Positions 5,346 through 64,000 of a stretch of DNA of 64,000 nucleotides are shown in pieces (position 1 is the first letter of the stretch; each line of letters begins with the position of its first letter). The DNA is from Malacoraja senta (taxonomy: Eukaryota), in contig CM075990.1 in assembly GCA_038087875.1 (NCBI GenBank), positions 16,184,001 to 16,248,000 on the forward strand, given 5' to 3'. Position numbers and translations under genes: made by a program. A model generated the notes under the pieces. That model had not been told where the DNA came from and ran no database searches. It saw only the letters and a list, made by a program, of their open reading frames with translations.

Positions 5346-5520
5346 GAGAATCGAAGAATTGCAGATAAAACTCGCAAAAAGGCACAAAGTGCTGGAGTGA
5401 CTCAGCAGCTCGTCGCATCTCTGGAGAACATGGATAGGTCTGAAGAAGGATCTCGACCCGAAACGTCACCCATTCCTTCTCTGGAGATGCTGCCTGCCCC
5501 GCTGAGTTTCTGCAGCATTT

Positions 5521-21792: not shown

Positions 21793-24700
21793 TAATTCAA
21801 TTCAATTCAATTCAAAGCACTTTATTCGTCCCCGAGGGGCAATTTAAGAGGGCGTATTACAGTAGCTTTTTTTTTTAAAAAGGGACACAATCAACAAACA
21901 TAAGCAGCACGCATACTGCACAATCAACCAACACACGCATTTCACAGACACACTGCACAATCACACAAGACACACAGCACATCAACATTCAACACATAGT
22001 AATAGTTTTTAAAGTGCTTCCTTAGTGCTTCAATTAAAAAGTGCATATAGAAGGTTATTTCATTTCATATGTTCATGAGTCAGTGATCAGCATTAAGAAG
22101 CTGGACAGCCCTGGGGTTTAAGGTTGCCTTCCTCCTCTGTGTCCGGCAACCCGGACAGCGAAGTCTGCGTCCTGAGGGGAGCCACTCAAACTCAGGAAAC
22201 AGGATGTGAGAGGGGTCCTGAAGAATCCTGCGTGTTAACTTTACAGACTGTTGGTCGCATAGGGCAGTGAGAGTTCGGACGGGCTGCTCAATGATTTTTG
22301 AGCAGACCTTGACCACATTCAACAGGCGGTTTCTGTTTTGCAGGGTGATGGAGTGGAACCAGCTAGTGAAAGAGAAAGTTATTACATTTTCAATGTATGC
22401 GTAGTAGAATGTGGTGAGAATGTCTTTGTTAATCCCAAATGACTTCAGCTTCCTGAGTAGGTACTGTCTCTGATGGCACTTTTTAAGGATTTCCTCTGTG
22501 TTAGAGGAAAACCTTAGCAGGTTGTCGAAGGCTGTTCCCAGGTTTTTGTATACCTCCACTATCTCCACTGGCTCCTGCTGGATGATAGTGGTGGCTGCCT
22601 CAGCCATCTGTCTCTGTTGGGGGGAAAAGGTCACAATCATGTCCTTGGTTTTGCTTATATGTAGCTCAAGACAAGACTTTTCACACCATACTATAAAGGC
22701 CTGCAGGGCTGAGCTGTGATGTTGTGTATGGCTGGGAAGCAGAGACAGGAGGACTGTGTCATCAGCAAATTTTACAAAGAGGCGGTTTGGCTGGGTGGAT
22801 CTGCAGTCATCAGTGTAGAGAATGAAGAGAAGTGGGGAGAGGACACAGCCGTGTGGAGAGCCAGTGAAAGTGAAGAGGGTGTCGGACAAGGTATGGTTCA
22901 CCAACACCCTCTGTGATCTGTTGGTGAGGAAGTCTATAATCCACAGAGTGAGTTGGTGGTTGAAGGTGGAAGCGGGTGATGAGCTTCTCAGCCAAAATAT
23001 GTGGCTGCATGGTGTTGAATGCTGATGAGAAGTCTGCAAACAGAAGTCTGGCTGTGGTCTTGGGGATTTCCAGATGCTTATGGATGGTGTTTAAGATGAA
23101 TATCTTTGCGCCATCGACACCCCTGCCAGCCTGGTAAGCAAACTGCAATGGATCCATCATCGAGCCAGTTGCCTTGGTGATGTGCTCCTTGATAATCCTC
23201 TCCATGGCCTTCATGACCAGGGAGGTGAGAGAACACCTTGGTGGTGCCCTTCTTTGGGATGGGAATCACTGTTGAGTTTTTCCACATCGCGGGGACTGTG
23301 CTGCTGGTCAAAGAGCCCTGGAACAGATGCTGGAACACACCTCCCAGCTGCTCAGCACGGTGCCATAGGGTCTGCCCACAGATGTTGTCTGGCCCTGGAG
23401 CTGTGTTCTTTTTAGTCCTTTTGAGGGCTCTCACCACCTCTGATGTGTTGATGTTGAGGCCGGAGTCATCAGGTCTGAGTGTAGAGACGATTGATTCTAG
23501 CTGGGTGCTGTTGTCCTTTTCAAATCTGGTATAGAAGGAGTTGAGACCATTCGGGAGTGAAGTGAAGCTGCTTCCTGCAGAATTCACTTTAGAGACAGAG
23601 TTCACTGCTGCCATGTTCTTGAGGCCCTGCCAAGCTGCACGGAGGTTCCCTTTTCCAAAGGTCTGCTCCACTTTGTTCTTGTATTTCAGCTTGGCAATTT
23701 TTATGGCCCGCTTGACCTCCCTGTTTACCTCCTTCTTCTCAGCTACAGAACCGGTAAAAAATGTTCTCTTTTTCTTATTCAATATGTTTTTTAGATCTTT
23801 AGTCACCCAGGGTTTATTGTTAGGGAAGGTACACAAAAATGCTGGAGAAACTCAGCGGGTGCAGCAGCATCTATGGAGCGAAGGAAATAGGTAACGTTTC
23901 GGGCCGAAACCCTTCTTCAGACTGATAGAGGAGGAGAACTTCTTCAAAGTAGGCATACCTTGACGAGATTTCGCAGTGGAGTAGACAAAGTGTTAAAGAA
24001 GGAACTGCAGATGCTGGAAAATCGAAGGTACACAAAAATGCTGGAGAAACTCAGCGGGTGCAGCAGCATCTATGGAGCGAAGGAAATAGGTAACGTTTCG
24101 GGCCGAAACCCTTCTTCAGACTGATAGAGGAGGTTGTTTATTGTTAGGGAAGATTGTGACCTTCTTGGAGGGGATAATATTGTCTACACAGAAAGTGATG
24201 TATGCTGAGACTGTATCCGCTTGCTCACTGGTGTTGGTGGAGGAGGATGTGAGGGTATTCCAGTCTGTGGTTTCAAAACACCCTTGAAGCCTGTCAAAAC
24301 TGTCCGGTGTCCACTGTTTGATGTCCTTTCTCTGTTCTCTTTACCACAGGTGTATAGGCAGGAGCGAGCAGTATGCTGCTGTGGTCAGCAGAGCCTAGGG
24401 GAGGGAGGGAGACGGCTCTGTAGGCGTCTGGGACTGACCCATAGCATTTGTCCAGTGTTTTCCCTAGACGGGTGGTGCAATTGACATACTGGTAGAATCC
24501 TTTAAGTGACTTGTCAATTGAACAGTGATTGAAGTCACCCATGATGAATTTGGGGGCGTCCGGAGATATCAGTTCGAGTCTGTCGAGCATATTTCTTATA
24601 TGTTCCGTAGCAGTGGATGCATTTGCTCTGGGGTGGATATAAACCAGAATAAAAAACAGTTGTAGGAATTCCCTGGGAAGGTAGAAGGGACGCAGGGAGG

Positions 24701-25605
24701 CAGCCAAGAGTTCAATGTCAGGGTTGCACAGTTCTTCTCTGACAACAACTGTTTTGCACCAGCGTGGATTGATGTAGAGGCAGACACCACCGCCATGGTG
24801 CTTGCCAGTCAGTTCAGTATCACGGTCTAACCTTACAGGAGACCCAAAGCCATCTATGTGCATGCTGTCACTGTTGTCACTCCCAGTCAGCCATGTTTCA
24901 GTGAAAGCAAGAATGGAAGCAGTCCGGTATTCGTACATGTGAAAAACGTTAGCTTGCAGTTCATAAGTCTTGTTACGCAATGAGCGCACATTAGCAAGGA
25001 TCACTGAGGGAAGTGCACGGTGCTTACTTTCTCCTCGCCTAAGTCTTGCTTTAATTCCACCCTTCTTCTTCCTCCCCCATCTCGTTACCTTCTTCCTATT
25101 GTTGTGCAGGGTGCCTGTCCGGTCGGTTGGGAGTTTACATTGTAGCTCCTCCGGCAACTTGTCTATGGCAGGGGCTTGGTGAGAGTGAAATTGCAGCTGA
25201 AGTAAAAAGTCACTGCAGTAAGTAATCCGTTGGTTGTCCGGAAGAGTATATCCATATGATGCAGTGGGCAGATAATCCAAGACGAACAGTAGAAGCATAA
25301 GAGTCCATAGTGTCCATGTGAAGTCCATACTTTGGAGCAGTGAATGCAAAAAGCTAGCTGGCTAATTAACGTTAGCTCGTTGGTCCGGTGTGTGTGTGAG
25401 GTAGTGGCAGTGTCCGCACAACCACACCACGAAAGTACTGAACTATACGGCAGCAGTTGACCGTCAATCGATACCCGATATACTTAAAACGAAACAAAAC
25501 ACTCTCACAAACTCACGTAACGTAACGTAACGAAAAGACAAACATTCAAAGCTACTCTCTGCACCGACAGGTCGACCGCCCGAGCAGTGACCCGGAACCG
25601 GAAGC
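21793..25605 (-). mobile_element. Near full-length Rex1/Babar-like non-LTR retrotransposon (APE plus RT), frameshifted and interrupted, in an AIFM2-B intron
   Basis: APE motifs NVRSL, FTETWL, GGGVC, GDFN, DH (24294-25349); RT motifs PGPD, QFAY, DFSSAFNT, GCVLSPLLF, KFADDT (22080-23836); AATAAA plus (TTGAA)n 3' tail. Confidence 0.9.
23829..24135 (-). mobile_element. Tandem (199-nt period) hammerhead-bearing Penelope-like repeat nested in the Rex1-like LINE
   Basis: Identical cores at 23893-23920 and 24092-24119; 17-bp TSD GTTTATTGTTAGGGAAG at 23812 and 24136. Confidence 0.8.
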
Positions 25606-26511: not shown

Positions 26512-27252
26512 AGGGCCTGTCCCACTTTCATGAGTTATTCATGAATTCTCCCGAGTTTTCCCCTTGATTCAAACTCGCAGAATGTTCGTAACAAGTCCGT
26601 AGGAGGTCGTAGGAGTTCGTAGATATATCGTAGCGGCTCGTTATGCTAGCCGTAGGTACTCGTGGCATCAGGTAATGGGGATGTCCCACTGTACGAGGTA
26701 ATTCAAGAGCTCTCCCGAGTTTAAAAAAAAATCAAACTCGTGGAAGCACGTAGCATGTACGAGGCGGGTACGTCGGAGCTCAGGACGTCTCTTAGCGGCT
26801 CGTAACGCTAACGGCAGGTACTCGGGCAACGCGGTAAGCTCGGGAAGACTCGTGGAGATTTTTCAACATGTTTAAAAATGTCCACGAGAGCCCCGAGTAC
26901 CTACGAGCGGCTGTTACCGTAATTCTCCGAGTTCGAATCAGGGCAAACTCGGAAGAACTCTTGAATGAACTCGTACAGTGGGACAGGGCCATTAGTCGGG
27001 ATGTTTTTTCCAGCCCGATATAACATGTCCACGAGTAAAAAAATGGTCGGGATGAAAGAAATTGCAACTTTTTACTCGTAAGGAGGGCATCGACATAGTC
27101 GTGGGAATTCGTAGACATACTCGCAGGAGTTCGTGAACATAGTCATGGAAGGTCGTAGGAGTTTGTAGATTACCACAATCTTGATTTTTTTTTTTAGGTC
27201 CTTTAAACTCAGCAGAGGTTTTGAATTAAGTCGTGAAAGTGGGATAGGCCCT
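26512..27252. mobile_element. MITE of the same TIR family with a related MITE nested at about 26676-26991
   Basis: Outer AGGGCCTGTCCCACTTTCA...TGAAAGTGGGATAGGCCCT; inner TGTCCCACTGTACGAG...CTCGTACAGTGGGACA. Confidence 0.75.
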
Positions 27253-37146: not shown

Positions 37147-38758
37147 CAGTGGCTTGCAAAAGTTTTCATACCCCTTGAACTTTTCCACATTTTGTCACGT
37201 TACAACCACAAACGTAAATGTATTTTATTGGGATTTTATGTGATAGACCAACACAAAGTGGTGCATAATTGTGAAATGGAAGGAAAATGATACATGGTTT
37301 TCAAATTTTTTTACAAATAAAAAACTGAAAAGTGTGGCATGCAAAAGTATTCAGCCCCCCTGAGTCAATACTTTGTAGAACCACCTTTTTCTGCAATTAC
37401 AGCTGCAAGTCTTTTGGGGTATGTCTCTACCAGCTTTGCACATCTAGAGACTGAAATTTTTGCCCATTCTTTGCAAAATAGCTCAAGCTCAGTCAGATTG
37501 GATGGAGAGCGTCTGTGAACAGCAATTTTCAAGTCTTGCCAGAGATTCTCAATTGGATTTAGGTCTGGACTTTGACTGGGCCATTCTAACACATGAATAT
37601 GCTTTGATCTAAACCATTCCATTGTAGCTCTGGCTGTATGTTTAGGGTCGTTGTCCTGCTGGAAGGTGAACCTCCGCCCCAGTCTCAAGTCTTTTGCAGA
37701 CTCTAACATGTTTTCTTCCAAGATTGCCCTGTATTTGGCTCCATCCATCTTCCCATCAACTCTGACCAGCTTCCCTGTCCCTGCTGAAGAAAAGCATCCC
37801 CACAGCATGATGCTGCCACCACCATGTTTCACAGTGGGGATGGTGTGTTCAGGGTGATGTGCAGTGTTAGTTTTCCGCCACACATAGCGTTTTGCATTTA
37901 GGCCAAAAACTTCAATTTTGGTCTCATCTGACCAGAGCACCTTCCTCCACATGTTTGATGTGTCCCCCACATGGCTTGTGGCAAACTGCAAACGGGACTT
38001 CTTATGGCTTTTTTTCAACAATGGCTTTCTTCTTGCCACTCTTCCATAAAGGCACGATTTGTGGAGTGCACGACTAATAGTTGTCCTGTGGACAGATTCT
38101 CCCACCTGAGCTGTGGATCTCTGCAGCTCCTCCAGAGTTACCATGGGCCTCTTGGCTGCTTCTCTGATCAATGCTCTCCTTGCCCAGCCTGTCAGTTTAG
38201 GTGGACGGCCATGTCTTGGTAGGTTTGCAGTTGTGCCATACTCTTTCCATTTTCGGATGATGGATTGAACAGTGCTCCGTGAGATGTTCAAAGCTTGGGA
38301 TATTTTTTTATAACCTAACCCTGCTTTAAACCTCCACAACTTTATCCCTGACCTGTCTGGTGTGTTCCTTGGGCTTCATGATGCTGTTTGTTCACTAATG
38401 TTCTCTAACAAACCTCTGAGGCCTTCACAGAACAGTTGTATTTATACTGAGATTAGATTACACACAAGTGGACTCTATTTACTAATTAGGTGACTTCTGA
38501 AGGCAATTGGTTGCACTGGATTTTATTTAGCGGTATCAGAGTAAAGGGGGCTGAATACTTTTGCACGCCACACTTTTCAGTTTTTTATTTGTAAAAAAAT
38601 TTGAAAACCATGTATCATTTTCCTTCCACTTCACAATTATGCGCCACTTTGTGTTGGTCTAGCACATAAAATCCCAATAAAATACATTTACGTTTGTGGT
38701 TGTAATGTGACAAAATATGGAAAAGTTCAAGGGGTATGAATACTTTTGCAAGCCACTG
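37147..38758 (-). mobile_element. Full-length Tc1 (DD34E) DNA transposon, 1612 bp, IR/DR type
   Basis: TA|CAGTGGCTTGCAAAAG...CTTTTGCAAGCCACTG|TA; about 213-bp TIRs with inner and outer direct repeats; TA target duplication. Confidence 0.97.
37365..38379 (-). pseudogene. Tc1 transposase with one frameshift near codon 17
   Basis: ATG at 38379 gives MKPKEHTRQVRDKVVE, then shifts into the 37365..38339 ORF; GRPPK, WSDETK, QQDNDPKH, SPDLNPIE with 34 residues between D and E. Confidence 0.92.
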
Positions 38759-52590: not shown

Positions 52591-53399
52591 CTAATACAAT
52601 TCATCGCTGGTTTTGAGTTCAGCTTTGGCCTTGTGGGTTTTATCATCTGACTTTTTGCGCCTCCTCTTGTCTTCTTTGGAGGCTCTGTTGCAGAGTTCCG
52701 CATCGCTCCCCATCTGCAGGCTGTCGAAGGTGACGTTCTGAGCCGCCTTCCTCAGCGCCTTGTCACCTCGCCTCGGTCGCCGACAGGCCTTGGCACATTT
52801 GTCAAAGCAGCAGCTGAAGCGGGTGTCAGTGGTGCAGGCGTACATGCCAGCGGGTACCGCCAACACCATGGCGCAAGCAATGACGATGATGTGGATCAGC
52901 TTCTCCCTCTGCTCCATTTCACTGACATCGGTGCCTGTCACAAATACAATGCACTGCCCTCTCGAGGGAGATTGGTTCCTCAGTGCCACACACACTTTGT
53001 ACTTTGTTGCTGGGTACAGCTCATTAATGGAGTAAGTATTCACCCCCGGTGCTATGTAAATCTTTTCCGTGCTGGGATCATCGAACTTGCCAAAGTGCAG
53101 CGTGTACCAGGTCTCAGATGGGTTCAGCGTTACTGCATGCCACTTCAATACTATCCCGTACACCATCTGCTTTGCAATGCTGACATCTATATAAACATTC
53201 TCCTCCCCGGGTGATGATGGGGGCAGATACGAGGGCATGGGTAAAGTTACTGAAGTCAAGGTTTTCACCAGGATCTGTACAGACGAGTTTCCCAGATAGT
53301 TGGCAGCACAGCAAATATAAACTCCTCCATCAGTCCCCTGTGCTGAAGGAACGACCAGCTCCGAATTCACAGTTTCTTCATCAACACTTGTGTGTTTCA
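52591..53399 (-). CDS. LRIT2: LRIT2 exon 3 (Ig C-terminal half, FN3, TM, tail)
   Basis: acag|TG; DGGVYICCAANYLG, FN3 (PATKYKVCV), REKLIHIIVIACAMVLAVPAGMY transmembrane segment; stop at 52591. Confidence 0.93.
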
Positions 53400-53461
53400 C
53401 TGTAATTAATGGAAAGAATTGGTTAAGTAATGGAATGATTAAGGGGGAAAAAAATCGCATC

Positions 53462-53767
53462 TGAATCGAGGACCACAGGACATAGGTTCAAGGTGAAGGG
53501 GAAAAGATTTAATAGGAATCTGAGGGGTAACTTTTTCACACAAAAGGTGGTGGGTGTCTGGAACAAGCTGCCAGAGGAGGTAGTTGAGGCTGGGATTATC
53601 CTAACGTTTAAGAAACAGTTAGACAGGTACATGGATAGGACACGTTTGGAGGGATATGGACCAAGCGCAGGCAGGTGGGACTAGTGTAGCTGGGACATGT
53701 TGGCCGGTGTGGGCAAGTTGGGGGCAAAGGGCCTGTTTCTATACTCTATCACTCTATCACTCTATGA
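53462..53767 (+). mobile_element. CR1 3' fragment filling most of LRIT2 intron 2
   Basis: FFTQKVVGVWNKLPEEVVEAG...FKKQLDRYMD plus tail (CTCTAT)n. Confidence 0.85.
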
Positions 53768-53772
53768 CATAC

Positions 53773-54554
53773 CGTTAATTTTCCGAATGATCTTCACACC
53801 ACTTGTCCACCACACTGTGGGAGTAGGATTCCCTTTAGCTGTACAGGATAAATGTACTTTCTGTCCAAACGGAGCACTAACGTTCATGTTTTCAGATGTG
53901 ACTGATGGTTTGAAGCAACTCTTCAGTTCCACTTTGTAGAAAAAGACGCCTGCCCTGGAATCTGGTCCTGAACAGGTTAGGTAAGAGTTCATCAGAATAA
54001 TAGGGGGGCTGATGGATTTGAGGAAGTGTACAAAACCTTTAAGGCGACAGTCACAGAACCAGGGGTTGTCGTGGAGAGCCAGGAGAGCATTGGCGATACC
54101 ATCCCGTGGACCATCATTCTGTTGTGTTCTCTGATAGACCGTCCAATTTAAGAACACGTTTCCAGAAACCACAGTAAGCCTGTTGAACGATAAGTCCAGA
54201 TAGGTCAAGTTGGTCAGATACCTCAGTGCGCTCTCTGGAAGGGCATCCAATCGATTACGTTTTAAATCCAATATTTTCAAAGCTGGGCAGTCCTGGAAAG
54301 TTGTCCATGGGATTGAACGCAGTTTGTTTCCTTGTAGACGTAGCTCTGATAATTTGCCGAGCCCTTGCATGCATCTTGTATGCATGACTGTAATGTTATT
54401 AAAGTTCAGCCACAGGTATTCCAAGGTAGGGTTTGAAGAAAATGCACCTTGGGGCAATTCCGCCAGGTGTGAATTTTCTATCCTGATTTTTTTAACATCG
54501 GATGGGATGTTCCCTGGTATTCTTCGTAGAGCTGAGTTCATGCAAATCAAACTC
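53773..54554 (-). CDS. LRIT2: LRIT2 exon 2 (LRRs, LRRCT, Ig start)
   Basis: 782 nt, cag|G...AACG|gtatg; LxxLxLxxN repeats, LHDNPWFCDCRL, LSCTAKGNPTPTVWW. Confidence 0.93.
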
Positions 54555-54627
54555 CTGAGAAATAAAATGTATGCCTGTGATTTAATATACATATAAATAA
54601 ACACTGCTTTGCAAACATCAGTATTGT

Positions 54628-54633
<6 letters not shown>

Positions 54634-54660
<27 letters not shown>

Positions 54661-54699
54661 GCAATATTGATATCTACATTGTATATATGTATATATATG

Positions 54700-57092: not shown

Positions 57093-57360
57093 ATGATGGT
57101 ATGGTGGTAAAACCTCACTCTGGCTCTTTAGACAAGAAATGTAACTTCCCCACCCCCCAATTGGGCTGAATATGAGTCCAGAGCTCCATCTTGTGTCAAG
57201 CTTGTGTCCTAAAGGCCAAAGAAGCAACCCAGTTCAGGAGCAATTGGTGACAGACAATAAAAGTTGCTCTTTAACAATGATGTCCACATCCTGTGGATGA
57301 ATTCATCACAAAGCCTGAGCTAGTTGTTTTGAAGAGAAGCCCTGTTCTATTCTTTCTCCA

Positions 57361-57840
57361 AGGTAGACAAAAGTGCTGGAGAAACTCAGCGGGTGCGGCA
57401 GCATCTATGGAGCGAAGGAAATAGGCAACGTTTCGGGTCGAAACCCGTCTTCAGACTGATGCGGGGTGGGGGGGGGGGGCGGGAAGAAGAAAGGAAGAGG
57501 AGGAGCCAGAGGGCTGAGGGAGAGCTGGGAAGGGGTGGAGACAACAAGGGCTACCGGAAATTGGAGAAGTCAATGTTCAAGCCGCTGGGATGCCCTTGCT
57601 GTCTCCTCCCCTTCCCAGCTCTTCATCAGCCCTCTGGCTCCTCCTCTTCCTTTCTTCTTCCCATCCCCCCCCCCCCCCCCCCCGCCCCCCTCCCACCCTG
57701 CATCAGTCTGAAGAAGGGTTTCGGCCCGATATGTTGCCTATTTCCTTCGCTCCATAGATGCTGCCTCACCCGCTGAGTTTCTCCAGCACTTTTGTCTACC
57801 TTCGACTTTCCAGCATCTGCAGTTCCTTCTTGAACAAACA
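57361..57840. mobile_element. Inverted (fold-back) Penelope-like insertion retaining the endonuclease C-terminus
   Basis: About 190-bp inverted arms; spacer reads HPSGLNIDFSNFR* on the minus strand; 12-bp TSD ATTCTTTCTCCA at 57349 and 57841. Confidence 0.8.
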
Positions 57841-61783: not shown

Positions 61784-62880
61784 TCAACAGAAATATTCAT
61801 TTTGTTGGGCTTCATTAATTGTCGCTTCTTCGGAATCGAAACTGGTCCTTGGTGACAGTAGCCTGTTGGCCTCATCCTTATTGTGATTCGTGAGATAATC
61901 CTCCTCAGTGGTGTCCGGCCTGGGCCCCATTGCCACGCTTTCGAAGGTGGCAAAGGAGTCGTTTTGGTAATCGTCTTCGGGCGGTTTGATCAGAAACTTC
62001 CTACAGCGTCTCTTCAAGGCGCCGCAGCAGACGATGAGGGTGAGGGGGATGACAATCACACATGCCACAGTAATCACCACGCCGTTGATCAGCTTCTGGG
62101 TCCCACTCGCGTGAGCCACCTCGTCAGTGGAGAAGATCACGCATTGCTCTTTCCTGGGGATGATCCCTTTCACACAGACACACACAATGTACTTGTTCTG
62201 CGGCATCAAACCATCAATGGTGATCTTGGTCTTCCCGGGACCCACGTTTATCCTCTTCATGTCCCTTTCACCAAAGGTTGTGTACAAAATGCTAAAAAGT
62301 GTGACGTTTGTTGCCTTGGGTGACCGCCAAGCCAATGATACACTGTGATAGGTGCCCCCTATCACTCTGACTGTTCTCACTAAGCAGTCTGCTTCAGGTG
62401 TGGTCAATGAAGGTCTCAACGTTACATTGCTGGAATCATCGACACTTCTGCGATTTTCCAACAAGCTGGTAATTTTGGAAGGATTCATCTTCAGGGAAAT
62501 AAACTCCGGGGCATTTGTTTCTGGATCCAACTGATCTTGGTGCAGGGTGAAGTAATCCGTCCCACCACTGGAATAGGAGCTCCTAGGCGTCTCTCTGGGT
62601 GAAACCGTGTTGGTCAGCATGCTCACGTACTGGGCCATCAGTTTCCTATTGCGTTGGGCAGCTTTCTGATTTCCCCGTTTTCTGGGACATCTCCATCCTG
62701 GCGTGCTTTTGATCGGTACCTTTGCCTTGGCAGAGTCAACCACAAGCAGGGACATCATAGCCCCAGATGTTCCTATCAGATTACTGGCTCGACACAAATA
62801 TTCACCAGAGTCTTGGTAGGATATATCAGCTAGCCTGAGAGTAGACCCCTTCTGGGTCCTGTTGGTGTAATCCAGTATCA
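61784..62880 (-). CDS. LRIT1: LRIT1 last exon (Ig end, FN3, TM, tail); upstream exons lie beyond the window
   Basis: ttgcag|TG; DSGEYLCRASNLIG, KEQCVIFSTDEV, QKLINGVVITVACVIVIPLTLIVCCGALKRRC, C-terminal NEYFC as in LRIT1. Confidence 0.93.
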
Positions 62881-64000
62881 CTGCAAGACACAATGAATGA
62901 ACCATATGCTGTTAAATTCATGGTACAAGGGTCAAGCATTATCTTTTTACTTCAAAGTTGAAATACATCCTTTGTCCTTTCTCATTTGTTTTGCTTTTAG
63001 GAGACCTGATAGAAGTTGATATAAAATTGTGGGAGGCATAGATAGGGTAGACAGTCAGAGTCTTTTTCCCGGCATAGAAATGTCAAATGCAAGAGGGAAT
63101 AGGTTTAACGTGAGAGGAGGAAAGTTTAAAGGGAGGAATGGGGCACTTGTTTTCTGACACAGAGTGTGGTGGGTGCCTGGCAGGAGATTTCAAGGTTGCA
63201 GAAGCTTTTAAGTGGCTTTTAGACAGGCATGTTAGCATGCGCGGTATGGATATGGACCATGTTTAGGCAGATGGGGGATAGCTTAATTTAGCATGGTTGA
63301 TAAAGATACGTGGGTCTGCTCCTGTATTTTACTGTTCCATGTTCAATATTTTGTTTGCATTAATTGTTAAATAAACTTTATAACCCATACTTACAGATGT
63401 GAGCCAATTCTTAAGTTCACAAGCTCATAATCTTAGGAGCAGAATTAGGCCATTCAGCCCATCAAGTCTACTCCATCATTCAATCATGGCTGATCTCTCT
63501 CTCCCTAACCCCATTCTCCTGCCTTCTCCCCATAAACCCTGAAACCCATACTAATCAAGAATCTGTCTATCTCTGCCTTAAAAATACCCATTGACTTGGC
63601 CTCCACAGCCTTCTGTGGCATTCAATAAATAGGATAGGTTCTTCCTTGTTAAAGCCTGAAACTTATTATGTCAAAATACTGTAGATACTACTGTACTATA
63701 ACAACAATTGGTTATTGATCAGTTGAGAACAATTTCCTGCAAGAAATTCTGAACAATGCTCCTTATGGGATAGGTCAAACAGGTGGATAAAACTAGCAAA
63801 TAGTTGTGATTTGTATTTTGTGTGTTCTGCGCAATTGTGTTCAAAGGGGTCATCCCCTAGAACAAATGTCAAGATTTTAAACATTCACCATATTTCATAG
63901 GATACTGCATGTAAATTTAACCTGTATCAGTACTGTGTGAATCAATGATTCTAACTCTGATTTACTGAGAAAGAATGCAAGTTTCAACAGACCCTCAATC

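What the first reader, a model, noticed from the sequence alone, without database searches (positions are those of the whole stretch)
23812..24152. Retrozyme-like 199-nt tandem with two identical hammerhead cores nested in a LINE ORF
Seen: two identical cores exactly 199 nt apart, flanked by a perfect 17-bp TSD that duplicates the LINE codons FPNNK. Established: non-LTR retrozymes and satellite-type hammerhead repeats are 150-400 nt tandem units processed to monomers or circles, and tandem minimal hammerheads can fold as a double hammerhead. Inference: a minus-strand transcript (the AIFM2-B and LINE sense strand) could release a 199-nt unit RNA. The spacer contains ATGCCTACTTTGAAGAAGTTC, possibly the parent ORF start joined to its 3' repeat, which would make this an internally deleted non-autonomous derivative.
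Basis: partly seen in the sequence, partly recalled or inferred. Interest (0 to 1): 0.7.

Follow-up and report, generated by a model that had tools for sequence, protein, structure and literature searches.

The report
Penelope-derived hammerhead tandem in skate intron
A short, recently inserted piece of a very common Penelope-type jumping gene was copied about one and a half times in a row; it looks like the known "retrozyme" elements of animals, but nothing yet shows that it cuts itself or forms an RNA circle.

Summary
In detail: two identical 110-nt cores 199 nt apart and a 17-bp target duplication, inside a frameshifted LINE in an intron of an AIFM2-like gene. The core is the pseudo-LTR of a Penelope-like element (PLE) with a minimal hammerhead motif. 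It occurs at 34 loci in this window, and its 3' ends cluster at two sites about 35 nt apart, the PLE "tail" signature. The spacer is ordinary family sequence (tail, leader, probable ORF start) joined to the usual 5' edge of the repeat. One new point: the insert's 5' end repeats 8 nt of that joint, so the joint was copied twice and the template was circular or multimeric in effect. Whether the ribozyme acted is open. Helix I has 2 bp, the active folds cost 19-33 kcal/mol over the minimum, the monomer circle is not self-paired beyond shuffles, and one polyA RNA run shows no pile-up of ends. Recurrence of the joint at other loci could not be settled. Verdict: a new member of a known kind (PLE-derived non-LTR retrozyme-like dimer); modest interest.

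The parts
24136..24152 (-). Target-site duplication, upstream copy (LINE codons FPNNK plus one base on each side)
23812..23828 (-). Target-site duplication, downstream copy; 23825-23828 is a 4-nt microhomology shared with the element's 3' end
24134..24135 (-). Two extra A at the 5' junction, origin unknown (untemplated or slipped from the target)
24126..24133 (-). 8-nt 5' extension CCTCCTCT, identical to the 8 nt before the internal joint: a second copy of the joint
   Evidence: unlike the parent 3'UTR seen
24024..24133 (-). Core 1: PLE pseudo-LTR body of the young subfamily
24090..24121 (-). Minimal type I hammerhead motif 1 (CUGAAGA, extra A, 4-bp helix II, GAAA, palindromic ACGU, 2-bp helix I); predicted cut after 24092
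   Evidence: criteria from PMC4209133
23991..24023 (-). PLE 'tail' between the two preferred 3' ends of the family
   Evidence: loose ends at 23825-23828 and at 23991
23927..23990 (-). Family leader and probable first 10 codons of the parent ORF (ATG at 23956, MPTLKKFSSS)
   Evidence: present in all 4 runs at about 1-4% of core depth; start-codon role inferred
23927..23928 (-). Joint between the leader/ORF-start side and the 5' edge of the pseudo-LTR, within a 2-nt CT overlap
   Evidence: tables 7 and 8
23825..23934 (-). Core 2: identical pseudo-LTR body, ending at the family's first preferred 3' end
23891..23922 (-). Minimal hammerhead motif 2; predicted cut after 23893
23893..24091 (-). Hypothetical 199-nt monomer if both motifs cut; not observed
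   Evidence: prediction only
22080..25361 (-). Host LINE coding region (endonuclease PF03372, RT PF00078, PF09004), broken by several frameshifts; the clade name Rex1/Babar is recalled, not from a call
57357..57836 (.). Separate inverted insertion of the same family that shows the parent's anatomy: ORF end (PSGLNIDFSNFR-stop), C/T-rich 3'UTR, then ATCAGT and the hammerhead

Best explanation
One young retrotransposition event of a Penelope-like element (PLE) family that is very abundant in skates. (1) Inferred from anatomy: the PLE endonuclease nicked an A/T-rich site in a LINE copy. The target end paired with 4 nt of the RNA at the family's usual first RT start site and primed reverse transcription, which left a 13-17-bp duplication. 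(2) Shown by sequence: the cDNA runs back through the pseudo-LTR to the family's usual 5' edge, continues into leader/ORF-start sequence at codon 10, runs through tail and pseudo-LTR again, crosses the same joint a second time and stops 8 nt later (307 nt, 1.54 units). (3) Inferred, the uncertain step: the RT wrapped round a single 199-nt PLE RNA piece, jumping from its 5' end to its 3' end twice, with no need for ribozyme cleavage. The product has the form of a retrozyme dimer and is probably an inert intronic passenger. That the insert is a PLE-derived TPRT product I put at about 0.93; the confidence given below is for the whole account, including the wrap-round step.
For: PLE anatomy: a minimal hammerhead motif. 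3' ends fall at two sites about 35 nt apart, in the window (23 of 50 pieces at q100-114, 17 of 50 at q130-149) and among the top loose ends in all 4 runs, matching the two RT start sites of PMC11167929. 11 of 34 loci are inverted composites. ORF end and 3'UTR are seen at 57357-57836. Three other young solo copies carry 13-14-bp TSDs with microhomology. The joint lies at q9-11, on the edge where copies usually stop (26 of 50 pieces start at q10-19; loose ends at 23926 in 4 of 4 runs). The 5' extension matches the internal joint at 8 of 8 nt, against 5 of 8 for the closest parent 3'UTR consensus (run X8); a little-skate predicted protein of the same subfamily reads PPP, not SSS, before ISLKK. 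In vitro, hammerhead mutants do not impair PLE cDNA insertion (PMC11167929).
Against: Sequence alone cannot tell wrap-round jumping from a covalent circle or from a linear multimer. Only 6 nt beyond the shared CT carry the 'joint copied twice' argument (chance 2e-4 on four letters, 0.016 if only C and T are allowed; simple arithmetic). The RT would have to displace its own cDNA, which is not shown for PLE RTs in the papers read. No second copy of the joint was seen or excluded. The parent ORF was not retrieved.
Confidence: 0.42

Rival explanations
1. True retrozyme cycle. An internally deleted master copy is transcribed, both minimal hammerheads cut as a protein-assisted dimer, the 199-nt monomer is ligated, and PLE RT starting at its usual site rolls 1.54 times round the circle. 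This also predicts the joint copied twice.
For: Joint present twice. Both motifs are intact and identical, and the palindromic ACGU allows a dimer helix III. Unit size and 46% GC fit PMC7229834. A more-than-unit copy from a circle is the model proposed in PMC4209133. Chondrichthyan retrozymes are reported in 10.64898/2026.07.22.740005. One older composite in the window restarts at the predicted cut site (6309 to 6286).
Against: Helix I has 2 bp before two mismatches, and helix II probability is at most 0.002. Constrained hammerhead folds lie 19-33 kcal/mol above the minimum, the dimer fold 26-33; no active control ribozyme was folded for comparison. The monomer circle folds no better than shuffles (42 of 100 as good). 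No pile-up of RNA ends appears in one fragmented polyA run. Only 1 of 9 vertebrate dimers cleaved in vitro in 10.64898/2026.07.22.740005.
Confidence: 0.25
2. Dispersal from a genomic tandem array. An array of 199-nt units exists elsewhere; a linear read-through transcript was copied from an internal RT start site and 5'-truncated after 1.54 units.
For: Explains the repeated joint and the identical cores directly. Spacer sequence is abundant in all three DNA-type runs (about 1-4% of summed core depth). Arrays and dispersed dimers coexist in other vertebrates (10.64898/2026.07.22.740005).
Against: No listed contig piece crosses the joint (24 pieces listed, 164,385 not shown), and the one that reaches it from the spacer side departs at 23927. 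The spacer is unique in the window. Spacer depth is equally explained by parent 5' ends.
Confidence: 0.23
3. A simple internally deleted PLE (one joint only) or a single template switch; the 8-nt 5' extension is a variant of the C/T-rich 3'UTR that matches by chance.
For: Both sequences are pyrimidine-rich. Internal microhomology-mediated deletions of PLEs are described (PMC3846280). The runs laid may be other species than the window's.
Against: None of the 3'UTR versions seen (2 window copies, loose-end consensuses in 4 runs, P0003) reads CCTCCTCT.
Confidence: 0.1

Closest known systems
Non-LTR retrozymes of animals (PMC7229834; 10.64898/2026.07.22.740005)
   Same: Non-coding tandem unit of 170-400 nt, type I hammerhead motif in each unit, GC below 50%, TSD longer than 4 bp, derived from a PLE pseudo-LTR; already reported in one chondrichthyan genome.
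   Different: Only 1.54 units. The motif is minimal, with a 2-bp helix I, not canonical. The monomer is not highly self-paired. No circular RNA, cleavage or family of copies is shown.
Penelope-like elements and their pseudo-LTR fragments (PMC4209133, PMC11167929, PMC8557442, PMC3846280)
   Same: Minimal hammerhead with an extra base between positions 9 and 10.1 and a palindromic helix III; partial tandems and inverted composites; a 30-40-nt tail between two RT start sites; many solo motifs.
   Different: The usual partial tandem holds a whole ORF between the repeats; here only about 10 probable codons remain and the joint is repeated. The clade was not determined by a call (the ORF end recalls Neptune, from memory).
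Drosophila virilis Penelope hammerhead variant (PMC4209133)
   Same: 2-bp helix I. There an intron ends at the 5' side of helix I; here a pyrimidine tract plus CAG lies at the same place.
   Different: Helix II is 4 bp here, 6 bp there; no splicing was shown here.
Newt and axolotl satellite hammerhead repeats (PMC7229834)
   Same: Weak helix III that needs a dimer fold.
   Different: Those have canonical helices I and II with loop contacts, about 330-350-nt units and demonstrated circles.

Membership tests
Penelope-like element derivative | Minimal type I hammerhead motif in the terminal repeat | tested here: met
   Motif read by hand in both cores. Helix II plus 2-bp helix I paired in 99 of 108 cells (91.7%) over 18 copies, but with no two-sided covariation and no excess over shuffles. 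No Rfam hit.
Penelope-like element derivative | 30-40-nt optional tail (two 3' end points) | tested here: met
   3' ends at about q110 and q145 in the window and in 4 of 4 runs.
Penelope-like element derivative | Tandem and inverted composite insertions | tested here: met
   11 inverted and 1 tandem among 34 loci.
Penelope-like element derivative | Parent with RT and GIY-YIG ORF | tested here: inconclusive
   Only a 13-codon ORF end is seen at 57577. No parent protein was retrieved, and no genome is held.
Non-LTR retrozyme | At least two hammerhead motifs in tandem, unit 170-400 nt, GC below 50%, non-coding | tested here: met
   Two motifs, 199 nt, 46% GC. The unit is only 1.54 copies, so the stricter 'two full units' reading is not met.
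Non-LTR retrozyme | Canonical type I hammerhead (about 6-bp helix I, loop contacts) | tested here: not met
   Helix I has 2 bp and then two mismatches; a distal 5-bp helix is possible across a 16-nt loop.
Non-LTR retrozyme | Highly self-paired monomer circle | tested here: not met
   Circle MFE -33.7 against shuffle mean -32.9, sd 3.6; 42 of 100 shuffles as good.
Non-LTR retrozyme | Same unit at several loci (a family) | tested here: inconclusive
   Unique in the window. The run data show the spacer but not whether the joint recurs. Collection scans found nothing, not even the core.
Non-LTR retrozyme | Self-cleavage and circular RNA in vivo | not testable with these tools
   One fragmented polyA run shows no pile-up of ends, and 0 of 76 spacer reads carry this locus's base at 23964; such a library would miss circles.

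The most novel reading that the evidence does not exclude
The insert records the birth of a retrozyme. A PLE reverse transcriptase went more than once round a 199-nt unit made of the pseudo-LTR, tail and ORF start, either by wrap-round jumping or on a ribozyme-made circle, and the unit now spreads as its own skate family. The TSD-bounded, joint-twice structure would then be direct genomic evidence for more-than-unit copying by a PLE RT and a ready substrate to test it.
Probability: 0.3. Interest if true: 0.55.

Novelty: new member of a known kind. Interest (0 to 1): 0.3.

Why it matters
The class is known: animal non-LTR retrozymes are already described as PLE pseudo-LTR derivatives, also in a chondrichthyan. 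What this copy adds is a clean, young example with a TSD, in which the RT start site, the joint and the stop point can all be read. The joint is copied twice, as predicted by the circle model for PLE tandems that PMC4209133 offers as tentative. If the joint recurs or a circle is found, it links PLE reverse transcription to retrozyme origin in one element. If not, it is one of very many PLE copying accidents, with no evident effect on the host gene.

Tried and rejected
Whole-genome search: no genome is held. Exact-pattern scans of metagenome contigs (spacer; core) and viral contigs (core) gave 0 matches each; these collections lack the host, so the blanks say nothing. Rfam gave no hammerhead or other relevant family. 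Protein searches with the unit's reading frame gave one real hit, P0003, among 2 candidates, none at near length and no exact record. Of 6 hits, five (P0004-P0008) are unrelated repetitive translations scored on many weak stretches and were dropped. The 672 RNA reads with a 'goes back 199' joint are not evidence of a circle: the stretch laid held one permuted unit, so any ordinary core-plus-tail copy gives this joint. The 'skips 64-76' joints in contigs (sides 18-29 nt, letters between not known) were set aside as probable unique contigs bounded by two repeats. The strand bias of spacer reads (about 28 against 61) was not interpreted. Covariation on 18 window copies was uninformative. An assembly artefact was rejected because of the exact TSD, the restored LINE frame and the unique spacer. 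A DNA-level tandem duplication after insertion was rejected because the spacer has no second copy. Earlier scan notes: none found.

Full report
Numbering. q positions count along the minus strand of the insert from 24135 (q1); core 2 repeats q3-q112.

Observation. The insert spans 23829-24135 (307 nt) between two copies of a perfect 17-bp repeat (23812-23828, 24136-24152). It holds two identical 110-nt cores with a period of 199 nt. The chance of such a 17-nt match at a fixed place is about 8e-11. Taking out the insert and one repeat restores the LINE frame through FPNNK. LINE contigs of runs X1 and X3 match 23640-23828 and then go on without the insert; the listed X8 contig ends at 23798. The LINE carries endonuclease, RT and PF09004 domains and is broken by other frameshifts on both sides. 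It lies on the minus strand between two exons (27581 and 17970) of an AIFM2-like gene, which I identified from short motif matches in exon order, not from a database hit. The host is a skate or close relative: the only real protein hit to the unit's reading frame is a Leucoraja erinacea predicted protein, 23 of 24 residues identical.

What the core is. It is a very common dispersed repeat: 50 BLAST pieces at 34 loci, 4,522 bases of the window, of which 22 loci are single, 11 inverted composites and 1 (this one) tandem. Of the 50 pieces, 26 start at q10-19; 23 end at q100-114 and 17 at q130-149 (the ends of old copies are approximate, and the two pieces of this insert are included). The same edges are among the top loose ends in all four runs laid: 23825-23828 (q109-112), 23991 (q145) and 23926 (q11). 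Two 3' ends about 35 nt apart are the PLE tail, which PMC11167929 (main text read, parts 1-2 of 4) traces to two internal RT start sites. Three other young solo copies carry 13-14-bp TSDs with a few bases of microhomology at the joins. An inverted insertion at 57357-57836 shows the parent's end: a 13-codon ORF end, a C/T-rich 3'UTR, then ATCAGT and the hammerhead. Partial tandems, inverted copies and the tail are the described marks of PLE insertions (PMC8557442 and PMC3846280, passages). I therefore read the core as a PLE pseudo-LTR. The full parent ORF was not retrieved.

The spacer and the joint. The spacer is q113-145 (tail) plus q146-209, which is unique in the window but common in the runs: about 1-4% of summed core depth in contigs, and 77-119 reads against up to about 4,900 in the RNA run (contig depth is not a copy number). 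So it is ordinary family sequence. It holds the first ATG after the tail, read MPTLKKFSSS; that this is the parent's start is inference. One X1 contig follows the spacer to 23927 and then departs, while 3'UTR-bearing copies join at 23926-23928, so the joint lies in a 2-nt CT overlap at the family's usual 5' edge. The insert's own 5' end is AA plus CCTCCTCT before ATCAGT: 8 of 8 identical to the internal joint, 5 of 8 to the closest 3'UTR consensus (X8), and unlike the two window parents and P0003, which reads PPP before ISLKK. The joint was therefore most likely copied twice. Only 6 nt beyond the shared CT carry this argument (chance 2e-4, or 0.016 on a C/T alphabet).

The ribozyme. Each core has CUGAAGA, an extra A, a 4-bp helix II, GAAA, a palindromic ACGU and U17, which fits the minimal PLE hammerhead of PMC4209133 (results and discussion read). 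Cuts would fall after 24092 and 23893 and release 199 nt. Against activity: helix I has 2 bp and then two mismatches; helix II probability is 0.0002 or less in the whole insert and 0.002 locally; constrained monomer and dimer folds lie 19-33 kcal/mol above the minimum; the circular monomer folds no better than shuffles (42 of 100 as good); 18 aligned copies show no two-sided covariation; Rfam finds nothing. These tests are weak. No active ribozyme was folded as a control, a 2-bp helix I is known in Drosophila virilis Penelope (PMC4209133), and the anole PLE ribozyme cuts only with its protein present (PMC11167929). In the one RNA run (polyA, about 6 in 100 of it read, 6,919 reads laid) no place shows a pile-up of ends, the LINE flank has no depth from 23640 to 23807, and 0 of 76 reads at 23964 carry this locus's base. 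That run may be of another species and would miss circles. The 672 reads with a 'goes back 199' joint are ordinary core-plus-tail copies, not circles.

Mechanism. Shown: TSD, 3' end at the family's first preferred site with 4-nt microhomology, 1.54 units, repeated joint. Inferred: target-primed reverse transcription by a PLE protein in trans on a template that was circular or multimeric in effect. Three routes give this sequence. I favour the RT wrapping twice from the 5' end to the 3' end of one 199-nt RNA piece (0.42), because the joint sits where copies normally stop, composites are frequent here, the hammerhead looks weak, and hammerhead mutants do not impair PLE insertion in vitro. A ribozyme-cut, ligated circle (0.25) and read-through of a genomic array (0.23) remain open; a single deletion with a chance 5' match is less likely (0.10). 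Recurrence of the joint would separate them and could not be settled: no genome is held, collection scans were empty even for the core, and only 24 contig pieces were listed (164,385 not shown), none crossing the joint.

Comparison with what is known. Non-LTR retrozymes are 170-400-nt tandem units with type I hammerheads, expressed as circles (PMC7229834, parts 1-3 of 6 read). A 2026 preprint (10.64898/2026.07.22.740005, parts 1-3 of 5 read; supplements not seen) derives them from PLE pseudo-LTRs, finds them in its one chondrichthyan genome (mean consensus 363 bp), and saw cleavage in 1 of 9 dimers tested. PMC4209133 already proposes more-than-unit copying of circles as the source of PLE tandems. 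PMC2377424 and PMC6765202 were seen as passages only; the Lünse et al. dimer paper only as a reference entry. The insert looks like a retrozyme dimer and belongs to the PLE-derived class, but it fails two retrozyme features tested (canonical helix I, self-paired monomer), so I do not file it as an active retrozyme. Seven literature searches listed no description of this skate family; the preprint's supplementary tables may hold it.

Verdict. A real, young, PLE-derived 1.5-unit tandem; a new member of a known kind; interest 0.3. The repeated joint is the one feature worth following, and a single genome-wide search would decide most of it.

Noticed in passing
window 33275-8463 and 4013-306, minus strand: Two AIFM2-like genes in tandem, seen as exons with matching short motifs (33275, 29871, 27581, 17970, 10356, 8463; a second copy from 4013).
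   Followed up: partly
window 6309-6240, minus strand: An older pseudo-LTR tail end is joined through two A to a copy that begins at q44/45, the predicted hammerhead cut site; the inversion at 5438 also starts at q45. A possible trace of cleavage in the older subfamily.
   Followed up: no
window 23958-23922, minus strand: A donor-like AAG|GTATGC over the ATG and an acceptor-like pyrimidine tract plus CAG just before the hammerhead bound 37 nt of the unit; in D. virilis Penelope an intron ends at the same place in helix I (PMC4209133). No spliced joint was among the 15 joints listed.
   Followed up: no
5' edge of solo copies, q11-16: The edge where most solo copies begin, ATCAGT, resembles an initiator motif (recalled), so solos may be full copies from the RT start site to the RNA's 5' end.
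   Followed up: no
window 57357-57836: Inverted PLE insertion with a long near-perfect hairpin; it gives spurious plant miRNA scores in Rfam, below the gathering thresholds.
   Followed up: partly
window 37365-38375, minus strand: Open 336-aa frame of a Tc1/mariner-type transposase with HTH and DDE domains.
   Followed up: no
window 52591-54673 and 61784-62911, minus strand: Two LRR/Ig/fibronectin-III coding pieces, LRFN-like (name recalled), possibly tandem paralogues.
   Followed up: no
P0003: A little-skate predicted protein ends in a read-through of this PLE's 3'UTR and pseudo-LTR after a LINE RT, probably a gene-model artefact.
   Followed up: partly
window 26512-27252: An element with terminal inverted repeats and internal repeated blocks, MITE-like.
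   Followed up: no
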